Below are positions 42,831 through 53,481 of a stretch of DNA of 64,000 nt, one piece after another. The stretch comes from Poseidonia sp. (GTDB taxonomy: Archaea > Thermoplasmatota > Poseidoniia > Poseidoniales > Poseidoniaceae). The stretch spans positions 11,075-75,074 of the forward strand of contig JBMSEL010000004.1 in NCBI GenBank assembly GCA_049412325.1, in the 5' to 3' direction. The notes beneath the pieces were generated by a model. That model saw nothing but the letters and a program-made list of their open reading frames with translations, was not told the DNA's origin and did no database searches. The translations under genes and the position numbers were made by a program. Positions within the stretch are counted from its first letter, which is position 1. The number at the start of each line of letters is the position of its first letter.

Positions 42831-42948
42831 GCGCTCACCGAATCTCCCAACATGAGGAGTCTCTTAACCCGTTTGATTCGGAAAAATTACATTTTTTCCC
42901 TCAGTCTTCATATACCCCCTTCGGAAGCCGCGTGTTGAGGCCGCAACG

Positions 42949-45209: not shown

Positions 45210-45264
45210 TTCACTGAACCACAGCGACCTAAAGGCGAACATTGCGGCCGCTGTGAGACCACAT

Positions 45265-45273
45265 GTTTTAGAA
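45265..45273 (+). promoter_or_regulatory. TATA-like element (GTTTTAGAA) about 30 nt upstream of the orc1/cdc6 ATG
   Basis: Its position is consistent with a leaderless transcript. There is no SD before the ATG at 45299. Confidence 0.3.
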
Positions 45274-45298
45274 CGGTTGACATCAGCATTCTCATGAT

Positions 45299-46498
45299 AT
45301 GGTAGACTACCTTGACCGCATCGGCGCTGGGCTCATCATCGCCCATCCAGAGATGCTTGATTTCGACTATGTCCCCGATGAACTGGTGGGTCGAGAAGAG
45401 ATTCAACGTGAATTGGCCTCGAAGTTCTCCAACGTGGCTTCCCCAGAGGGGGCGGCCCGTGCGGTGATCACCGGTCCGGTTGGCAGCGGAAAAACGGTGC
45501 TCGCCAAGACCTTCTGCAGGGACCTGCAACGACACCTCGCCGGCAAGCGTGAACTGAAGGTGGCCCACATCAACTGCCGCAATGCCTCCACCAGCATGAG
45601 GGTGGCACAACGCATCCTCCACCAGTTTGACCCGGGTCATCCCGACCGTGGGCTCTCCCTCGGCGAAATGCTCCTCAGCCTGAGAAAGATGCTACGCCGA
45701 ACCTCAACCCACCTCATGGTGGTGCTCGACGAAGTGGACCACATGCTGCGGCGGTCTGGAGACGAGTTGCTGTACCAACTTCTGCGCATTGATGAAGACC
45801 AAGAAGGAACGGGGACGATCTCCTTGATGCTCATCAGCCAAGAGCAAGTGCTTGATGTCCTCGAGACCGCCGTCATTTCCAAGTTCGGCCAGTCCAATCA
45901 CCTTCGCATCCCACCCTATACCGTGGATGGGCTCGAGGCCATTGCCCTGCAGCGAGCCGAATTGGCGCTGGTGCCGGGAACCTACAACGAGGCCACCGTT
46001 CGCCTGCTCGCAGAGCGAGCTGGACCAAGTGGCGACGCACGCCGTGTGATCGAATACCTGAGCGCAGCGGCTGAGCGATGTGAATTTCGCCAAGACAAGT
46101 ACTCGGAACGCCTTATCAGCATTGAAGACGTTCACGCCATGAGCGACAATGTCGCCTTGGATACCACCGCTCGCTTGGAAGTGGTCGACGACCTCGCACC
46201 CCAGGGCATGTTGGTCCTGCTTGCTATGTGCCGGCGTCTTCGCACGGAAGAATCCATGACCATGGGCGACGTTGAACGGCTCTATGCGGTGGTGTGCGAA
46301 GAATATGAACAGAAGCCAAAAAGCCACACGACGCTTTGGAAATACATCAAACAGATCGAGCAAGACGGCGTCATCGCCACACGGGTGGCCACCGTCCCCG
46401 GTGGACGGGGGCGAACAACGCATCTAAGCATGCCACACTTCCTTCCGGCTGACATCGCCAGCCGCCTTGAATTGCTCTTACCGAAGCGACTTCGCTGA
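45299..46498 (+). CDS. cdc6: Orc1/Cdc6 replication initiator
   Basis: 'LVGREEIQRELA', Walker A 'GPVGSGKTVLAK', Walker B 'VVLDEVDHM' and a C-terminal winged helix 'GRGRTTHLSM'. Confidence 0.9.
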   Translation: MVDYLDRIGAGLIIAHPEMLDFDYVPDELVGREEIQRELASKFSNVASPEGAARAVITGPVGSGKTVLAKTFCRDLQRHLAGKRELKVAHINCRNASTSMRVAQRILHQFDPGHPDRGLSLGEMLLSLRKMLRRTSTHLMVVLDEVDHMLRRSGDELLYQLLRIDEDQEGTGTISLMLISQEQVLDVLETAVISKFGQSNHLRIPPYTVDGLEAIALQRAELALVPGTYNEATVRLLAERAGPSGDARRVIEYLSAAAERCEFRQDKYSERLISIEDVHAMSDNVALDTTARLEVVDDLAPQGMLVLLAMCRRLRTEESMTMGDVERLYAVVCEEYEQKPKSHTTLWKYIKQIEQDGVIATRVATVPGGRGRTTHLSMPHFLPADIASRLELLLPKRLR

Positions 46499-48719: not shown

Positions 48720-49019
48720 TTACGGAAGCGTGAACAAAACGTCGTCACCATGCCCGTCAAGCCAACCGATTTTCACGCCTGCATCGATCCATGCGTGGGC
48801 ATAGTTAATCGCTCCAAAGGCACGGACCAAATCTCCAGTCTTGAGGAAATGCTGAGCGTCAGAAGCGTAGTCGTCAGCCATCCGAAGCATCACCGCCAGG
48901 TGCACCGCTTCATCCGAGGGCGCTTCCACCAAAGGTGTGGCTTTGGCACGTGCCCGCCGTGTGATGTCAAGGTAGGATTCAACGCGCTCAACGGTAAGTG
49001 AAGTCAAATCTCCGCTCAT
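48720..49019 (-). CDS. DUF357-family small archaeal protein
   Basis: 'MADDYASDAQHFLKTGDLVRAFGAINYAHAWIDAGVKIGWLD' fits the DUF357 helical-hairpin signature. ATG at 49019 overlaps the upstream stop (ATGA) and has a GGAGGGTG SD. Confidence 0.55.
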   Translation of the reverse strand: MSGDLTSLTVERVESYLDITRRARAKATPLVEAPSDEAVHLAVMLRMADDYASDAQHFLKTGDLVRAFGAINYAHAWIDAGVKIGWLDGHGDDVLFTLP

Positions 49020-50068
49020 TCCCCACCCTCCTTTTGCCGCTTCAATAAGCGTCGAGCGTCTTCGGTACGCCCAAGGGCTTCGTAAAGTTCGATGGCGAGG
49101 GAAAGTTTTCCGAGGTCTTCGGCTTCTTGGGCTCGTACAAACATCTGACGCCGTTCCTCCCAATTTCGAGCCATGGCAGCTTCTGCGGCTGCTTTGTACC
49201 GGCCTTCACGCTCTGCATCGGCGAGATGAGGAGCCGTCCATCGACGCAGAAGACCTTCACGAGTCGCCGTTACCATAGCGTCCGGGGTGCACAGCACCAA
49301 CAAGTCGCCGAGATTCATGCCCTCCGTCAATGGCTTCTCATCCTCGGCGTCGTTTGGGCCATCGGTCATGGAGATGAGATGGCCTTCAATCCCGAGAACC
49401 CACCAACCATCGCCGCTTCGAACCGCCCCCATGGGCTCAAGGCTGTCGTATTCCAGCCGATTCAACATGTCCCAACCAAAGGGATGGGGAACGCCCTCCC
49501 AAAGACCACCATCACTGCTTTGCAACAACAATCGGCCCTCAGATAGTGTGGAACACCAACTCCATGAGCGATCTTCCAGCTTTCGTTTTCGGTCATCACC
49601 GGTCAACCGTCCACACCACAGATGGCCATCAGGGTCCTGCCAGAGCAGGTGCTCTCGGTCCAACCAACCAACCAACCGGCGAACGGGCCCGCTGTCAACG
49701 CGTCGAATACCACGGCCCTGTTGAGAGAAGAGGTGAATCTCACCACGTCGACCTGCAAGGGCCCAACCGCCGCCGGGCCGTGGTGACAAGTCACTGAATC
49801 CGCCAGGGGCACTTCGCCCCTCGTTTACCATTGAACCGTCGTTGGTGTTGATCAGGTAAAAACCGTGAGCGGCGAGGACTCCCACGGCGCCTTGCGTGGC
49901 TTTGGCCGCGTGAACTTTGAACGGAATGTCGACCGCCCACCGAAGGGTACCATCTGCCTCCAGCAAATCCAGTTGGAGTCCAGCGCTCACCAACACTCCA
50001 CCCTCAACAGCAGCGATCGTAGCCACGCGGTCGTTGGCTTGCCATGACCATGCAATGTTCCATGTCAC
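49016..50068 (-). CDS. Beta-propeller (PQQ/WD-like repeat) protein with C-terminal helical tail
   Basis: Repeated 'DG.LW/ DG..W' blades (EADGTLRW, NDGSMV, DPDGHLWCG, SSDGGLWEG, SGDGWWVLG). The C-terminus is TPR-like and helical. GTG start at 50068 overlaps the upstream stop (GTGA) and follows a perfect GGAGGTGA with a 6-nt spacer. Confidence 0.55.
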   Translation of the reverse strand: MTWNIAWSWQANDRVATIAAVEGGVLVSAGLQLDLLEADGTLRWAVDIPFKVHAAKATQGAVGVLAAHGFYLINTNDGSMVNEGRSAPGGFSDLSPRPGGGWALAGRRGEIHLFSQQGRGIRRVDSGPVRRLVGWLDREHLLWQDPDGHLWCGRLTGDDRKRKLEDRSWSWCSTLSEGRLLLQSSDGGLWEGVPHPFGWDMLNRLEYDSLEPMGAVRSGDGWWVLGIEGHLISMTDGPNDAEDEKPLTEGMNLGDLLVLCTPDAMVTATREGLLRRWTAPHLADAEREGRYKAAAEAAMARNWEERRQMFVRAQEAEDLGKLSLAIELYEALGRTEDARRLLKRQKEGGE

Positions 50069-51948
50069 TGTAATTCACCTCCATTGATGGCGCCCCATGC
50101 CGTTAATTGCGCCCTCGCCGCTTGTGTGAGTGAATACTTGCGTGAGCGCCCTACTTGACGTGCCTGCAAAATACCGTGCTTCAGGAGGCGATTACTGATC
50201 TGGGAGAGGCGAGCGCGTTTGATCTTCAGGTGCGTCAACACTTCCTCGTCCGAGGGTGAGTAAGCACGCTCATGTGCGAGGGCCACGATGTAACTCTCAC
50301 TCGAATTCAAGGAGCCGAGAAGATGCTTGTTGAGGGCATAAGATTCGTTGGGCCCTGTACGTTCACGAATACGGCCTTCAAGAAATGCCAGAAGGCCCTG
50401 ATGGTGCGAGTTGGACATGGATTGACCCGTACCCAAGAGACCGGCGAGCGCTGACAACAGCGCTCTGTCCGTCAATTGTTCAGCCTCAGCAGGCATCGAA
50501 CCCATCGGTTGGTATGCAGCAGCATCGAACCCGTCGGTTGGTTCTCCCTCGTCGACCTCTTCCATCATCCCGATTTCATCGTGGAGCAACATGGCCGATT
50601 CCTCTTCAGGGATCTCTTCTGGTAGCGATGGAGGAAGGATTTCTTCAGCCACCCAATACTCATACTCGCTCGAGGCGTCAATGAGTTCTTGCCGGGGAGG
50701 TTGTTTCTCCTCCTCCTCCATCTCATCTGTTTTCGTGGCCGTTTTGGCGTCTTTGTTGCGGTTGGCCAATCCTTTGAACATCCCGTGTACCGGCGTGCGG
50801 CCGCCCAACGCCTGGTCAGCATCGATGATGGGGGGGTTGAGCGGGTTGGGCTGTAACGGTTCGTCCTCTGCCTGTTGCTCGTTCAGACGATCCATGTCCA
50901 ATTCAAAGCCCGCCAAGGCGGGAGGTTCTGAGGCGCTTGCATCCATGTTGCTCGCGAGGGACGGGCGTTGATCCCACGGCATTGAGGCATCAATCACCTC
51001 GGAGGAGGCCTCTGAAAGGGGTTCTTCCTCTGGAGGTTGCACCGTGGTGTGGCCAGAAGGTTCACCATCAGCCATGGGTGGCTCTTGTGCTCCTGGTTCG
51101 TGGTCGAAGGCGGGGGTCTCTTCATAACCCATCAATCGGTGAAGACGTTCAGGTTCATCTCGAGGTTGAATCCTCGCCGAGGTGTCGAGAAACGGTGCTG
51201 GCACCTCCTCCGATTGACGCATCCGAATGCTGTCCACCGCATCACGAAGGATGGTGATGACCGAAGCAGGGTAGCCATCGCACTTGTCGAGGATGGTCGT
51301 GGCGTCTTGCATGGTGAACGAACTGTCCATGACGCCAACTGAAGCAAGGCGTTGTCGAACCAGCGCCATCACATCGTTGGCAGTGAATGGAGAAAGTCGA
51401 AACGACTCAAAGCCATCCACGACGGCACCCGGTAGCTGGTGACGCTCTTTGATATCACAGACCAAAACAAGCAAGGCGTTGAGTCGCTCGAGCGAGGAAT
51501 GAGCATCCCGCAGGGCAACTTCCAACACCGAGAGGTCGCTCGCTGGAACGTCGATGACGATCATGGGCAATTTGTCGTTGTAGGCGTACATTTCATTGAC
51601 GAGCTCCGTGACAAGTTCGGTTCGGTTGACCGGCGGCTCCCCACCGATCATTTGGCGATAGCACATGCTGAGCAGCGAAGTCGCAGGAGAATGAGCAGGA
51701 AGGTGATCGATGGTTGCCACGGCCGCAGCATAGGTTTTCAGGCAACTGACCAGGGACGTCCGCCCGGAACCCAACGGGCCCAGCAACATCACTCGGCGAG
51801 CAGACCGGAATCGCAAGAAATTCTGAAGGCGGGTGAAGATGTCATCACGGCCGACCAGTTTACCCGACTCGCCAGGTTCGAGAGGGCGAATCGAAAATGG
51901 GTTTTCCTCCAAACAAGGTAAGCCATAAGCATGGGTTTCGCGAACCAT
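50065..51948 (-). CDS. Degenerate AAA+ (Orc/Cdc6- or Arch_ATPase-like) domain, long acidic disordered linker, C-terminal winged-helix protein
   Basis: 'LVGRDDIFTRLQNFL...VMLLGPLGSGRTSLV' is a P-loop with Arg in place of the Walker A Lys. The Walker B-like 'PMIVIDVP' lacks the D-E pair. About 250 aa are Glu/Asp/Pro-rich. The C-terminal 'RARLSQISNRLLKHGILQARQVGRSRKYSLT' is wHTH-like. ATG at 51948 lies about 23 nt downstream of a TATA-like 'GATATACTT'. The alternative start is a GTG at 51999. Confidence 0.6.
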   Translation of the reverse strand: MVRETHAYGLPCLEENPFSIRPLEPGESGKLVGRDDIFTRLQNFLRFRSARRVMLLGPLGSGRTSLVSCLKTYAAAVATIDHLPAHSPATSLLSMCYRQMIGGEPPVNRTELVTELVNEMYAYNDKLPMIVIDVPASDLSVLEVALRDAHSSLERLNALLVLVCDIKERHQLPGAVVDGFESFRLSPFTANDVMALVRQRLASVGVMDSSFTMQDATTILDKCDGYPASVITILRDAVDSIRMRQSEEVPAPFLDTSARIQPRDEPERLHRLMGYEETPAFDHEPGAQEPPMADGEPSGHTTVQPPEEEPLSEASSEVIDASMPWDQRPSLASNMDASASEPPALAGFELDMDRLNEQQAEDEPLQPNPLNPPIIDADQALGGRTPVHGMFKGLANRNKDAKTATKTDEMEEEEKQPPRQELIDASSEYEYWVAEEILPPSLPEEIPEEESAMLLHDEIGMMEEVDEGEPTDGFDAAAYQPMGSMPAEAEQLTDRALLSALAGLLGTGQSMSNSHHQGLLAFLEGRIRERTGPNESYALNKHLLGSLNSSESYIVALAHERAYSPSDEEVLTHLKIKRARLSQISNRLLKHGILQARQVGRSRKYSLTQAARAQLTAWGAINGGELQ

Positions 51949-52007
51949 GGCCGAGCAACTTTCTCCAAGTATATCATGTTTCACCGGAGCAGAGGGCACT
52001 GCGATAC

Positions 52008-52110
52008 CGTTAGCACACGTTAATCGCTTTACCGAGCAGAGGAGATGGGTGTTTTTAACGCGTGATTAACGCAACATTAACGCGTTAACCGAGGCGTTAG
52101 AAGCGTTAAT
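52008..52110. repeat. Array of 8 (A)TTAACGC-type motifs: 3 direct copies at 11-bp phase, central 12-bp palindrome, inverted copies
   Basis: TTAACGC at 52055-61, 52066-72 and 52077-83. GCGTTAA at 52082-88 and 52103-09, and GCGTTAG at 52094-100. Degenerate CGTTAG at 52008-13 and CGTTAA at 52018-23. TTAACGCGTTAA at 52077-88 is a perfect palindrome. Confidence 0.7.
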
Positions 52111-52182
52111 TTCCCGTGTTCGCCAACGACCCTCCAGCGATTGATTGAAGGAACGAAGGCCCCACCCATCAACGGGAGCGAC

Positions 52183-53481
52183 ATGCCGGTTGAAAACAGT
52201 CGAGTCAAAGGATTGTACAAACTCAGCGTTGAAGAGCGCCGTTCCTTGGTTGCTGCGGCGGCCGACCTCTCAGACGCTCATGTCGCCGCCCTGGCCGCCC
52301 ACGGAGAATTGGACGAAACCGCAGCAGACCGAATGATCGAGAACGTCATCGGCACGATGTCGCTCCCAGTGGGCGTGGCCACGAACTTCGTCATCGACGG
52401 CTCGCATTACCTCATCCCGTTTTGCCTTGAAGAATCGAGCGTTGTCGCCGCTGCCTCAAACATGGCCAAGCGCTGCTTGCACCATGGTGGCTTCACGACC
52501 AACAACGACGCTCCCGTCATGATCGGCCAGATTCAACTCTTGGACATTGAAGATCTCGAGCAAGCAATCGCTCACATCACGGACGCCAAAGACGATTTGA
52601 TGACATTTTGCAACGATATCCCTTCCCGAATGATCGCAATGGGCGGAGGCTGCAAGAACATCGAAGTTCGTCGTTTGCCCACCCACGTAGGTGAGATGCT
52701 CATCGTTCATCTGCTGGTGGATTGCCGTGATGCCATGGGGGCCAACGCCGTCAACACCATGGCAGAGCGCGTGGCACCTCGCTTGGAAGCGTTGACGGGT
52801 GGACGGGCTCATCTTCGCATCCTTTCCAACCTTGCTGGACACCGCCTGGCCCGTGTGCAAGCGGTGTTTACGCCTGAAGAAATGGCATCCGATGGAACCC
52901 GAGAGGACGGCTTGGCCGTCATTGAAGGCATCCTTGAAGCCCATGCTTTCGCCGTAGAAGACCCGTTTCGAGCCACCACGCACAACAAAGGCGTGATGAA
53001 CGCCATTAGCAGCGTAGCGCTTGCCTGCGGGCAAGATTGGAGAGCGATTGAAGCTGGCTGTCATGCATGGACGACCATGGCGGACGGACGCTATACATCC
53101 ATGTCAGACTGGGCGCAGGACAGCGAGGGCAATCTGGTTGGAAGCATGGACCTGCCCATGGCCGTCGGCATCGTCGGCGGTGCCTCCAAAGTCCACCCTG
53201 CTGCACAAGCGAACCTTGCCATCTTGGGCGTGGAAACGGCCCAAGAGTTGGCCGGCATCATTCTGTGCGCAGGTTTGGCGCAAAATTTGGGAGCGCTCCG
53301 GGCCCTTTCAACCAAAGGAATCCAAGCGGGCCACATGAAACTCCATGCGAAGAACATGGCCGTCAGTGCTGGAGCGGTGGGTGAAGAGATTGAGATCTTG
53401 GCTGCTCGACTCCAAGCCCATGAAGGCCACCGAACCCAAACCTTGGTCGAATCGTGGCTGAAAGAACTTCGCGGCGAGTGA
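52183..53481 (+). CDS. hmgA: HMG-CoA reductase, class II
   Basis: 'ENVIGTMSLPVGVATNFVIDG..YLIPFCLEESSVVAAASNMAK' shows the class II 'EE(P/S)SVVAA' block, whereas class I has 'TTEGCLVAS'. Also 'DAMGANAVNT' and 'GHMKLHA'. ATG at 52183; the track start is a TTG at 52141. Confidence 0.9.
   Translation: MPVENSRVKGLYKLSVEERRSLVAAAADLSDAHVAALAAHGELDETAADRMIENVIGTMSLPVGVATNFVIDGSHYLIPFCLEESSVVAAASNMAKRCLHHGGFTTNNDAPVMIGQIQLLDIEDLEQAIAHITDAKDDLMTFCNDIPSRMIAMGGGCKNIEVRRLPTHVGEMLIVHLLVDCRDAMGANAVNTMAERVAPRLEALTGGRAHLRILSNLAGHRLARVQAVFTPEEMASDGTREDGLAVIEGILEAHAFAVEDPFRATTHNKGVMNAISSVALACGQDWRAIEAGCHAWTTMADGRYTSMSDWAQDSEGNLVGSMDLPMAVGIVGGASKVHPAAQANLAILGVETAQELAGIILCAGLAQNLGALRALSTKGIQAGHMKLHAKNMAVSAGAVGEEIEILAARLQAHEGHRTQTLVESWLKELRGE

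What the first reader, a model, noticed from the sequence alone, without database searches (positions are those of the whole stretch)
52008..52110. Helically phased ATTAACGC repeat array with a perfect 12-bp palindrome in a divergent intergenic region
Three direct TTAACGC copies start at 52055, 52066 and 52077, exactly 11 bp apart, which is about one helical turn. The third copy fuses with an inverted copy to give TTAACGCGTTAA (52077-52088). Two more inverted copies follow at 52094 (GCGTTAG) and 52103. Two degenerate inverted copies lie upstream at 52008 and 52018. That is eight copies of a 7-8-mer in about 100 bp. I saw no comparable motif density in the other intergenic regions. The array lies between the divergently oriented degenerate AAA+/wHTH gene and hmgA, which catalyses the committed step of isoprenoid lipid synthesis. 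Two readings fit. (a) It is a cooperative operator for a (w)HTH regulator, possibly the neighbouring wHTH protein acting on itself and/or on hmgA. (b) It is an initiator-binding repeat cluster (ORB-like logic: inverted repeats beside an Orc-like AAA+/wHTH gene). The last copy overlaps a TTAATTT stretch that could be the hmgA TATA box, which favours a repressor-type operator.
Basis: partly seen in the sequence, partly recalled or inferred. Interest (0 to 1): 0.7.

Follow-up and report, generated by a model that had tools for sequence, protein, structure and literature searches.

The report
Conserved protein-binding box array in Poseidoniales
Eight short TAACG boxes between two divergent genes of a marine archaeon (Poseidoniales, Marine Group II) are kept across the whole order at a fixed distance from the promoter of a neighbouring lineage-specific DNA-binding gene, so they are most likely that protein's own control site and not an hmgA operator or a replication origin.

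Summary
Eight of the 32 TAACG/CGTTA pentamers in the 64-kb window lie in 52008-52109, with 6 in 60 bp against at most 3 in 300 shuffles.

The window is a Poseidoniales (Marine Group II) MAG contig. The array is present in all 73 usable species-level loci of one clade. It is present in a rearranged form in 74 loci of a second, deeper clade (Thalassarchaeaceae-like) and in one deeper lineage. Core positions TAACG are 95-100 % conserved, while the spacers between boxes are randomised but keep their length.

The array centre lies 134 bp from the start codon of the AAA+-like/winged-helix gene in 58 of 73 species, and 114 bp from its TATA-like box in 66 of 73. The only variants add 11 bp. Its distance to hmgA varies from 82 to 139 bp in one clade and 108 to 289 bp in the other.

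The array therefore belongs to the AAA-wHTH gene. My best reading is that it is a cooperative binding platform for that protein and controls its own operon. I found no AT-rich unwinding element, no ORB consensus and no skew switch, so the origin reading is unsupported. The proposed overlap with an hmgA TATA box is not conserved. This is a new variant of a known kind, and binding is untested.

The parts
51969..51983 (-). Putative core promoter of the AAA-wHTH gene. Read on the - strand it is TGAAACATGATATAC, a BRE-like GAAAC followed by a TATA-like ATATAC, 21-35 nt upstream of the ATG at 51948. This implies a leaderless or near-leaderless mRNA.
   Evidence: The block aGTATaT.ATgTTTcA is conserved in 72 of 73 loci at the same offset from the start codon. 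Its function as a promoter is inferred from position and composition only.
52007..52013 (-). Box U1 (CCGTTAG; core CGTTA at 52008-52012).
   Evidence: The consensus cCGTTA is conserved across clade A at a fixed offset.
52017..52025 (-). Box U2 (ACGTTAATC; core CGTTA at 52018-52022), 10 bp from U1.
   Evidence: The consensus acGTTAatc is conserved across clade A.
52026..52054 (.). Spacer between U2 and the first direct box, fixed in length and variable in sequence.
   Evidence: Information content is near zero, but there are almost no length changes. GC is 0.53, so it is not AT-rich.
52055..52061 (+). Box L3 (TTAACGC).
   Evidence: Exact in 42 of 73 species, and the core is kept in the rest.
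52066..52072 (+). Box L2 (TTAACGC), 11 bp after L3.
   Evidence: Exact in 51 of 73 species.
52077..52083 (+). Box L1 (TTAACGC), 11 bp after L2. It overlaps R1 by 2 bp.
   Evidence: Exact in 53 of 73 species.
52082..52088 (-). Box R1 (GCGTTAA on the + strand). The L1/R1 junction at 52082/52083 is the array centre, 134 bp from the AAA-wHTH ATG.
52094..52100 (-). Box R2 (GCGTTAG), 12 bp after R1.
52103..52109 (-). Box R3 (GCGTTAA), 9 bp after R2. The usual form in other species is CCGTTAA.
52136..52155 (+). hmgA-proximal conserved element AGCGATTGATTGAAGGAACG. It is probably the hmgA core promoter and is not part of the array.
   Evidence: It stays 45-50 bp before the hmgA ATG in every clade A locus, while its distance to the array varies. 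Clade B has GGTTAGAAG at the same place. It resembles the TTTTAGAA block before orc1. Promoter function is inferred.
50065..51948 (-). Gene for the 627-aa AAA+-like/winged-helix protein, the proposed binder and regulated gene. It has an AAA+ fold at residues about 28-247, a degenerate Walker A (GSGRTS) and Walker B (DV), a disordered acidic linker at about 248-520, and a wHTH at about 530-620.
49016..50068 (-). Downstream gene of the same transcription unit. Its product is a 350-aa beta-propeller with a C-terminal helical hairpin, found only in Poseidoniales. Its start overlaps the AAA-wHTH stop.
48720..49019 (-). Third gene of the unit, DUF357.
52183..53481 (+). hmgA (class II HMG-CoA reductase), the divergent neighbour on the other side.

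Best explanation
The array is a cis-acting protein-binding platform. It consists of eight 7-bp boxes, [T/c]TAACG[C/g], in a fixed geometry. Its most likely ligand is the winged-helix domain of the protein encoded next door, a lineage-specific AAA+-like/wHTH protein with a dead-looking ATPase site. Its most likely job is to control that protein's own operon (AAA-wHTH, beta-propeller, DUF357).

Proposed mechanism. One winged helix reads one box. Direct boxes 11 bp apart place successive protomers head-to-tail on one face of the helix. The AAA+-like domains hold neighbours together, which gives cooperativity. Two opposed triplets meet at the overlapping central pair. Two further boxes sit 38-48 bp closer to the promoter. 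The whole complex is held in helical register with the TATA-like box, so it can help or hinder TBP/TFB recruitment.

What is shown here: the boxes exist, they are under strong purifying selection across the order, they are phased to this promoter and not to hmgA, and the neighbour has a conserved wHTH. What is inferred: who binds, the stoichiometry, the role of the AAA+ domain, and the sign of regulation.
For: (1) Statistical reality of the cluster.

(2) Phylogenetic footprint. The array is present in 73 of 73 usable GTDB species-representative loci. Core positions are 95-100 % conserved over 438 boxes, while the spacers are randomised.

(3) The box is kept in a second clade of 74 metagenome loci. 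There the protein is only 19-27 % identical and hmgA about 60 %, and the arrangement is different. It is also kept in a deeper lineage on a 3.0-Mb contig.

(4) Geometry. The array centre is 134 bp from the AAA-wHTH ATG in 58 of 73 loci, 133-135 bp in 68, and 145-146 bp (that is, +11) in 5. It is 114 bp from GTATAT in 66 of 73. In clade B the distal array starts 138-143 bp from the ATG in 72 of 74 loci. The distance to hmgA ranges over 82-139 bp and 108-289 bp with no 10.5-bp periodicity.

(5) The neighbour has a confident C-terminal winged helix with pLDDT about 85. This is its most conserved part in distant members, at 51-65 % identity against 31-43 % for the AAA+ domain. The motif R-x-R-L-S-Q-I-x-N-x-L ... 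G-R-x-R is invariant. An invariant reading head matches an invariant box.

(6) The N-terminal domain has an AAA+ fold of the initiator/clamp-loader type, which is an oligomerising module.

(7) Mirrored boxes vary independently, the DNA hairpin z-score is only -1.6 and there is no Rfam hit, so the constraint is on each box and not on a fold.

(8) No other cluster of boxes occurs in about 1.6 Mb of Poseidoniales sequence examined.
Against: No binding experiment exists. The box never varies, so box/recognition-helix co-variation could not be tested. The whole neighbourhood from dph2 to smc is syntenic order-wide, so adjacency alone does not single out the AAA-wHTH gene.

The boxes lie upstream of the presumed BRE/TATA and do not overlap it, so the sign of regulation is unknown. 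A protein with an Arg in place of the P-loop Lys and no Walker B Glu may not oligomerise in the usual nucleotide-dependent way.

Promoter positions are inferred, with no TSS data. Genome-wide uniqueness of the array is untested. The sequence examined outside the window is always the same neighbourhood.
Confidence: 0.5

Rival explanations
1. The array is chiefly an operator or enhancer for hmgA. A regulator, either the neighbour or another protein, would bind the boxes to set the level of HMG-CoA reductase and so isoprenoid lipid synthesis.
For: hmgA is the divergent neighbour in every locus of both clades and in the deeper lineage. A shared intergenic region can serve both promoters.
Against: The distance from the array to the hmgA ATG, and to the conserved hmgA-proximal element, varies over 82-139 bp in clade A and 108-289 bp in clade B without helical periodicity. 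The distance to the other promoter is fixed. The TTAATTT proposed as the hmgA TATA box is not conserved, and in some clade A species the last box lies only 8 bp from the hmgA-proximal element. An outgroup control (hmgA without the AAA-wHTH gene) could not be obtained.
Confidence: 0.12
2. A different trans-acting transcription factor, encoded elsewhere in the genome, binds the boxes. The AAA-wHTH gene would be only its target.
For: Nothing here shows who binds. A short TAACG core could suit many HTH or wHTH proteins. The synteny of the whole region is conserved regardless.
Against: It needs an extra unseen component. The only DNA-binding domain encoded within the conserved unit is the neighbour's wHTH, and its reading head is as invariant as the box. 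Family and array co-occur without exception in 148 loci.
Confidence: 0.15
3. The array is a chromosomal landmark and not a transcriptional operator: a centromere-like or SMC-loading site. The AAA-wHTH protein would be its site-specific adaptor, in the way ParB/parS, SegB or AspA sites lie beside their own genes.
For: scpB, a scpA-like gene and smc lie about 1.4-7 kb away on the far side of hmgA, and orc1/cdc6 about 5.5 kb away on the other side, in all loci. The array has many phased sites, as expected for a nucleation or spreading site. It is the only such cluster in the 64-kb window. The partner gene encodes a beta-propeller scaffold.
Against: The case is purely circumstantial. The fixed register with the TATA-like box is more naturally explained by transcription control. 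No ParA/SegA-type ATPase is adjacent. The synteny of the whole region is conserved anyway.
Confidence: 0.1
4. The array is a replication origin. The boxes would be initiator-binding repeats (ORB logic) for a derived Orc-like AAA+/wHTH initiator.
For: The neighbour has an initiator/clamp-loader-type AAA+ fold plus a winged helix; Hda, RFC, Orc1/Cdc6 and ORC are the top structural matches. Two opposed arrays of helically phased boxes recall DnaA-box arrays at oriC (own knowledge). The canonical orc1/cdc6 5.5 kb away has only about 90 bp of upstream intergenic DNA, with no repeats in it. The array intergenic region is the largest one in the surrounding 21 kb.
Against: There is no AT-rich unwinding element. 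The array region has GC 0.52 against 0.56 overall, the inner spacer has GC 0.53, and the lowest 80-bp GC in the whole window is 0.39, about 9 kb away. There is no ORB or mini-ORB consensus cluster. Cumulative GC skew falls monotonically through 52 kb, and orientation-corrected skew is negative on both sides. The intergenic region is as short as 216 bp and must hold two promoters. Walker A Lys and Walker B Glu are lost, and there is no Cdc6 lid or WHD signature.
Confidence: 0.08

Closest known systems
Self-control sites of archaeal winged-helix regulators, and Orc1/Cdc6 paralogues used as transcription factors (for example Sulfolobus Orc1-2, which binds a conserved hexanucleotide in DNA-damage-response promoters; PMC6061795)
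   Same: An AAA+ plus winged-helix protein is used, or proposed to be used, as a sequence-specific promoter-binding factor. It reads short, hexamer-sized boxes in promoters.
   Different: The protein here is not an Orc1/Cdc6 family member by sequence: it has no Cdc6 lid or WHD and its ATPase motifs are degenerate. It carries a disordered linker of about 270 residues. The sites form one eight-box phased array at its own gene, not single boxes spread over a regulon. Binding is untested.
PhoB/OmpR-type 'pho box' geometry (own knowledge, not checked here): 7-bp direct repeats separated by 4 bp, each read by one winged-helix domain, bound head-to-tail
   Same: The repeat arithmetic is exactly the same, a 7-bp box plus a 4-bp spacer giving an 11-bp period. 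A winged-helix reader is expected.
   Different: That is a bacterial response-regulator family with a receiver domain. It has no opposed triplets and no AAA+ domain. The likeness is one of mechanism only.
DnaA-box arrays in bacterial oriC (own knowledge): two oppositely oriented arrays of helically phased boxes that guide an AAA+/HTH oligomer
   Same: Opposed arrays with phasing of about 11 bp. The proposed binder has an AAA+ fold of the same broad clade (Hda is the top structural match) plus a C-terminal HTH-type domain.
   Different: There is no unwinding element, no skew switch, and the ATPase site is degenerate. The host is archaeal and has a canonical Orc1/Cdc6. The array sits in register with a promoter.
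Archaeal ORB / mini-ORB origin elements bound by Orc1/Cdc6 (PMC1904270 for Pyrococcus, listed; consensus from own knowledge)
   Same: Inverted repeats beside a gene for an AAA+/winged-helix protein, with a canonical orc1/cdc6 within 6 kb.
   Different: The motif is unrelated in sequence and much shorter (7 bp against more than 13-30 bp). There is no AT-rich DUE. The adjacent gene is not orc1/cdc6.
Centromere-like sites next to their binder genes (ParB/parS; archaeal SegB and pNOB8 AspA; own knowledge)
   Same: Multiple binding sites lie immediately upstream of the gene for the protein that binds them. Such sites often double as autoregulatory operators.
   Different: There is no partner ParA/SegA ATPase gene, the protein family is different, and no evidence of spreading or segregation exists.

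Membership tests
Archaeal replication origin (ORB/mini-ORB type) | Repeats matching the ORB/mini-ORB consensus (TCCA..GGAAA core, G-string) | tested here: not met
   The boxes are [T/c]TAACG[C/g]. TCCASWGGAAA with one mismatch or fewer gives 7 scattered hits against 4.8 expected, none in an intergenic cluster.
Archaeal replication origin (ORB/mini-ORB type) | AT-rich duplex-unwinding element flanked by the repeats | tested here: not met
   The intergenic region has GC 0.52 and the inner spacer 0.53, against a window mean of 0.56. The most AT-rich 80-mer in the window (GC 0.39) lies at 42835.
Archaeal replication origin (ORB/mini-ORB type) | Strand-composition or gene-orientation switch at the site | tested here: not met
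   Cumulative GC skew is monotonic through 52 kb. Orientation-corrected skew is negative on both sides. Only 64 kb could be examined, so this is weak evidence.
Archaeal replication origin (ORB/mini-ORB type) | Initiation of replication at the site in vivo (depth peak, 2D gels, marker frequency) | not testable with these tools
Orc1/Cdc6 protein family (for the neighbouring gene) | Intact Walker A GxxGxGK[ST] and Walker B hhhhDE | tested here: not met
   GPLGSGRTS is invariant, with Arg where Lys belongs, and the Walker B region reads VIDVP. A few distant members keep Lys.
Orc1/Cdc6 protein family (for the neighbouring gene) | Cdc6 lid and C-terminal Cdc6 winged-helix domain recognisable by profile | tested here: not met
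   Pfam finds only AAA_16, below its cut-off. The true orc1/cdc6 in the same window hits Cdc6_lid and Cdc6_C. hhalign against that Orc1 aligns only the 42-residue P-loop region. Distant relatives carry MarR/TrmB-type wHTH domains.
Orc1/Cdc6 protein family (for the neighbouring gene) | AAA+ fold of the initiator/clamp-loader clade followed by a winged helix | tested here: met
   The AlphaFold2 model has an AAA+ domain with pLDDT about 80 and a wHTH with pLDDT about 85. Foldseek top matches are Hda, RFC, Orc1/Cdc6 (2qby, 1fnn) and ORC/Cdc6, with E about 1e-7. This is an architectural likeness only.
Transcription-factor binding-site array / autoregulatory operator | Sites conserved in the orthologous intergenic region while the flanking non-coding DNA diverges | tested here: met
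   73 of 73 clade A loci, 74 clade B loci and 1 deeper lineage.
Transcription-factor binding-site array / autoregulatory operator | Fixed position, or helical phasing, relative to the core promoter of the regulated gene | tested here: met
   The array centre is 114 bp from the TATA-like box in 66 of 73 loci, and the variants add 11 bp. The clade B array starts 138-143 bp from the ATG in 72 of 74 loci. This feature is not met for hmgA.
Transcription-factor binding-site array / autoregulatory operator | The regulated gene encodes a sequence-specific DNA-binding domain | tested here: met
   A C-terminal wHTH is predicted with high confidence and shows weak ArsR-family sequence matches. It is the most conserved part of the protein.
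Transcription-factor binding-site array / autoregulatory operator | Demonstrated binding of the protein to the boxes and an effect on transcription | not testable with these tools
   This needs EMSA, footprinting or DAP-seq, and in-vitro transcription.
Structured RNA or DNA hairpin element | Compensatory changes that keep pairing, or a match to a known RNA family | tested here: not met
   No Rfam hit at gathering threshold or at E of 1 or less. DNA fold z-score is -1.6. Mirrored boxes depart from consensus independently.

The most novel reading that the evidence does not exclude
The array and the lineage-specific AAA+-like/wHTH protein together mark a unique chromosomal landmark of Poseidoniales. 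It would be either the replication origin, read by a derived initiator-like protein, or a loading or segregation site linked to the adjacent ScpAB-SMC genes. The promoter phasing would then reflect coupling of that landmark to expression of its own binder.
Probability: 0.15. Interest if true: 0.85.

Novelty: new variant of a known kind. Interest (0 to 1): 0.58.

Why it matters
Poseidoniales (Marine Group II) are among the most abundant archaea in the surface ocean and have no pure culture (own knowledge). Almost nothing is known about how they control genes or organise their chromosome.

This is a precisely defined cis-element paired with an obvious candidate binder. Both are invariant across the order, and both can be tested with recombinant protein and synthetic DNA without growing the organism.

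If the proposed pairing holds, it gives a first worked example of a regulatory circuit in this group. It also gives an example of an ATPase-dead AAA+/winged-helix protein that assembles on helically phased direct repeats. If the landmark reading holds instead, it would locate an origin or an SMC-loading site in an uncultured order.

Tried and rejected
(1) RNA element. Rfam gave no hit at gathering threshold over the whole window, and only a chance miRNA hit at E of 1 or less over the region. No tRNA was found.

(2) Cruciform or hairpin. The DNA fold z-score is -1.6, and mirrored boxes vary independently.

(3) Bacterial-type promoter and terminator scan. Nothing relevant, as expected for an archaeon.

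(4) Canonical ORB search. No cluster.

(5) Defence-system reading of the AAA_16/wHTH protein and its partners. No PADLOC hits.

(6) Outgroup control using hmgA homologues. The search listed only Poseidoniales proteins of 72 % identity or more, so no hmgA without the AAA-wHTH neighbour could be examined.

(7) Viral scan for TTAACGC-N4-TTAACGC. Most hits are single chance matches. A few tailed-phage contigs have 4-5 boxes at 11-bp spacing, but these lie in bacterial-type structural modules and are unrelated.

(8) Co-variation between box and recognition helix. This was impossible because both are invariant, even at 19-27 % protein identity.

(9) Literature. There is nothing on replication origins in Poseidoniales, and the box sequence appears only in unrelated contexts such as primers.

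(10) Function of the co-transcribed 350-aa protein. It is a beta-propeller scaffold, which does not discriminate between the hypotheses.
Full report
**1. What is in the sequence**

- TTAACGC lies at 52055, 52066 and 52077, with 11-bp steps.
- The inverted copy at 52082 overlaps the third direct copy to give TTAACGCGTTAA (52077-52088).
- GCGTTAG lies at 52094 and GCGTTAA at 52103.
- Upstream lie CCGTTAG (52007-52013) and ACGTTAA (52017-52023).

Five of the six exact heptamers in the 64-kb window lie in 55 bp. The window holds only 32 TAACG/CGTTA core pentamers, and eight of them are in 52008-52109. Every pair of cores 14 bp apart or closer is here. The maximum is 6 cores per 60 bp, against 1-3 in 300 dinucleotide-preserving shuffles. 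The cluster is not chance.

**2. Context**

An exact-protein look-up places the window on a 112-kb contig of MAG GCA_049439295.1. Homologues carry Poseidoniales (Marine Group II) names.

The gene order is: dph2, orc1/cdc6 (45299-46498), S6e, eIF2-gamma, PIN_9, then DUF357, a 350-aa protein and a 627-aa AAA_16-like protein on the minus strand, then the array, then hmgA (class II HMG-CoA reductase, 52183-53481), then scpB, a scpA-like gene and smc on the minus strand. The 234-bp array region is the largest intergenic region in the surrounding 21 kb.

**3. Conservation in clade A**

A profile of the 627-aa protein retrieved 78 loci from GTDB species representatives. In every locus that contains both gene starts, hmgA is the divergent neighbour.

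All 73 usable intergenic regions carry the array. Anchored on the centre, the consensus in window orientation reads:

aGTATaT.ATgTTTcA ... cCGTTA....acGTTAatc ... (about 30 variable bp of fixed length) ... aTTAACGc...ATTAACGCa..aTTAACGCGTTAa...AagCGTTAAaccCGTTAa

Pooling 438 boxes gives [T 0.78/C 0.16] T A A C G(0.95) [C 0.80/G 0.18]. The spacers carry no information. hmgA identity falls to 67 % and the AAA-like protein to about 29 % across this set, so the non-coding conservation is a strong footprint.

The perfect 12-bp palindrome occurs in only 26 of 73 species. Departures from consensus in mirrored boxes are independent. The DNA hairpin z-score is -1.6 and there is no Rfam match. Each box is therefore constrained by itself, as expected for protein recognition and not for a nucleic-acid fold.

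**4. A second clade and a deeper lineage**

An exhaustive profile search found only 174 representatives of the family in 1.84 billion proteins. They include full-length members at 19-27 % identity, which sources name Thalassarchaeaceae/Poseidoniales and sometimes 'ArsR family regulator'.

Eighty metagenome loci of that clade again have hmgA as the divergent neighbour, at about 60 % identity, in the 74 loci long enough to show it. Their intergenic regions are 267-427 bp.

These loci keep the same box but in another arrangement. After a TATA-like TaCaTAA come two box-like TTcACGc / CT.ACGc sites 11 bp apart, then one TTAACGc. After a fixed gap comes the distal array: TTAACGc-4-CTAACGC, then gCGTTAA-4-gCGTTAA, then TTAACGC. 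The unit common to both clades is a pair of direct boxes 11 bp apart.

A still deeper member on a 3.0-Mb contig has the same synteny and TAACGT boxes.

**5. Which gene the array belongs to**

In clade A the array centre is 134 bp from the AAA-wHTH start codon in 58 of 73 species. It is 133-135 bp in 68 and 145-146 bp in the other five. It is 114 bp from the GTATAT block in 66 of 73, with the same five at 124-125 bp. The only tolerated change is one helical turn.

The distance to the hmgA start codon takes 23 different values between 82 and 139 bp. A separate conserved element (AGCGATTGATTGAAGGAACG, 52136-52155) stays 45-50 bp before the hmgA ATG.

In clade B the distal array starts 138-143 bp from the AAA-wHTH ATG in 72 of 74 loci, but 108-289 bp from the hmgA ATG.

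The array is therefore in stereospecific register with the AAA-wHTH promoter and floats relative to hmgA.

**6. The neighbouring protein**

- Pfam sees only a sub-threshold AAA_16 match.
- The AlphaFold2 model shows an AAA+ domain (residues about 28-247, pLDDT about 80), a disordered acidic region (about 248-520) and a winged helix (about 530-620, pLDDT about 85).
- Foldseek places the AAA+ domain with Hda, RFC, archaeal Orc1/Cdc6 and ORC/Cdc6.
- Walker A reads GSGRTS, with Arg for Lys, and Walker B reads D-V. Both are invariant in clade A, and a few distant members keep Lys.
- hhalign against the true Orc1/Cdc6 of the window aligns only the P-loop stretch.
- More distant relatives of about 395 aa are AAA_16/ATPase_2 proteins with MarR/TrmB-type wHTH domains, not Cdc6_C.
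- The wHTH is the best-conserved part in distant members, at 51-65 % against 31-43 % for the AAA+ domain. R-x-R-L-S-Q-I-x-N-x-L and G-R-x-R are invariant.

The protein therefore has Orc-like architecture, but it is not an Orc1/Cdc6 member and is probably not an active ATPase.

Its stop overlaps the start of a 350-aa, Poseidoniales-only protein. That protein is modelled with pLDDT 87 as a beta-propeller with a helical tail. DUF357 follows.

**7. Mechanism proposed**

One winged helix would bind one box. Direct boxes 11 bp apart would put protomers head-to-tail on one face of the DNA. This is the same 7+4 arithmetic as PhoB pho boxes, and it resembles the phased, opposed DnaA-box arrays of oriC (both from my own knowledge).

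The AAA+-like domains would supply protomer-protomer contacts. The complex would be held at a fixed rotational setting relative to the TATA-like box and would modulate TBP/TFB recruitment at the protein's own operon.

All clade A boxes lie upstream of the presumed BRE/TATA, so activation, or repression by wrapping, are both possible. In clade B two box-like sites abut the TATA-like box, which would fit autorepression. They might, however, simply be the BRE.

What is shown: the existence, selection and phasing of the boxes, and a conserved wHTH next door. What is inferred: the identity of the binder, cooperativity through the AAA+ domain, and the sign of regulation.

**8. Origin reading**

- There is no AT-rich stretch. 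The intergenic region has GC 0.52, the inner spacer 0.53 and the window 0.56, and the lowest 80-bp GC is 0.39 at 42835.
- There is no ORB-like cluster.
- GC skew falls monotonically across the site. After correction for gene orientation the residual skew is negative on both sides.
- The intergenic region can be as short as 216 bp and has to hold two promoters.

Points in favour also exist. The neighbour has an initiator-type fold. The arrays are opposed and phased. orc1/cdc6 and smc are close in all loci. There are no repeats in the roughly 90 bp upstream of orc1 itself. Only 64 kb of one genome could be tested for skew, and the library holds no paper on origins in Poseidoniales. I therefore rate this reading low but not excluded.

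**9. Uniqueness**

No other cluster of boxes occurs in about 0.99 Mb (window plus genome loci) or in the 0.62 Mb of metagenome loci. Apart from the window, that sequence is always the same neighbourhood, so genome-wide uniqueness remains untested.

**10. Verdict**

It is an operator-like array tied to the neighbouring wHTH gene. It is not shown to act on hmgA, and it is not supported as an origin. In kind it is a binding-site array beside the gene of its likely binder. The box, the eight-site opposed and phased layout and the ATPase-degenerate AAA+/wHTH family are undescribed in the library I searched, so I class it as a new variant of a known kind.

Noticed in passing
window 45257-45298 (just upstream of orc1/cdc6 ATG at 45299): A roughly 40-bp block (ACCACATGTTTTAGAACGGTTGACATCAGCATTCTCATGAT) is nearly invariant in 59 Poseidoniales loci, while the 50 bp before it are random. 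It contains a TATA-like TTTTAGAA and a conserved TATA-to-ATG stretch, so it may be a control site for orc1/cdc6.
   Followed up: partly
window 52136-52155 and 52174-52178: An hmgA-proximal conserved element, AGCGATTGATTGAAGGAACG, lies 45-50 bp before the hmgA ATG in all clade A loci. Clade B has GGTTAGAAG at the same place. A Shine-Dalgarno-like GGGAG lies 5 nt before the ATG. The element is probably the hmgA core promoter with a short leader.
   Followed up: partly
window 49016-50068 (-): A 350-aa protein of unknown function with no Pfam hit is found only in Poseidoniales (151 homologues). It is modelled with pLDDT 87 as a beta-propeller (BamB/WD40-like) with a C-terminal helical hairpin. Its start overlaps the stop of the AAA-wHTH gene, and it is more conserved than that gene, at 55-94 % identity.
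   Followed up: yes
window 50065-51948 (-), residues about 248-520 of the product: The disordered acidic linker of about 270 residues holds several short, strongly conserved motifs (IDAS.PW..R; FELD; DEPLQ..PF..PIIDA; G.F..L..R.K; EYWV; LLHDE.G) that look like partner-binding peptides. Walker A has Arg for Lys throughout clade A, but a few distant members (P0146, P0182, P0184) keep Lys.
   Followed up: no
L194 11415-11462; L202 2003-2053; L213 12050-12086; L250; L251 (IMG/VR contigs): Some tailed-phage contigs carry 4-5 TAACGC-type boxes at 11-bp spacing, for example between terminase and portal genes or just before a head-protease-like gene. They were found only because the search pattern selected for two such boxes, and they are probably unrelated to the archaeal array.
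   Followed up: partly
whole window outside 51949-52182: The core pentamer TAACG/CGTTA occurs 24 times against 36.7 +/- 6.0 in dinucleotide shuffles. This is a mild depletion that could reflect avoidance of stray sites.
   Followed up: no
clade A loci L005-L082 compared with clade B loci L083-L162: Both clades have eight boxes in total, but in different layouts. Clade A has 2 inverted, 3 direct and 3 inverted. Clade B has 3 promoter-proximal direct boxes, then a distal set of 2 direct, 2 inverted and 1 direct. Five clade A species carry an exact +11 bp insertion between promoter and array.
   Followed up: partly
L046 and L024 (long-read or polished assemblies): The tblastn match to the AAA-wHTH protein breaks off early, after 104 residues in L046 and 528 in L024, although the flanks are intact. 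This is probably a frameshift from assembly error and not a pseudogene.
   Followed up: no
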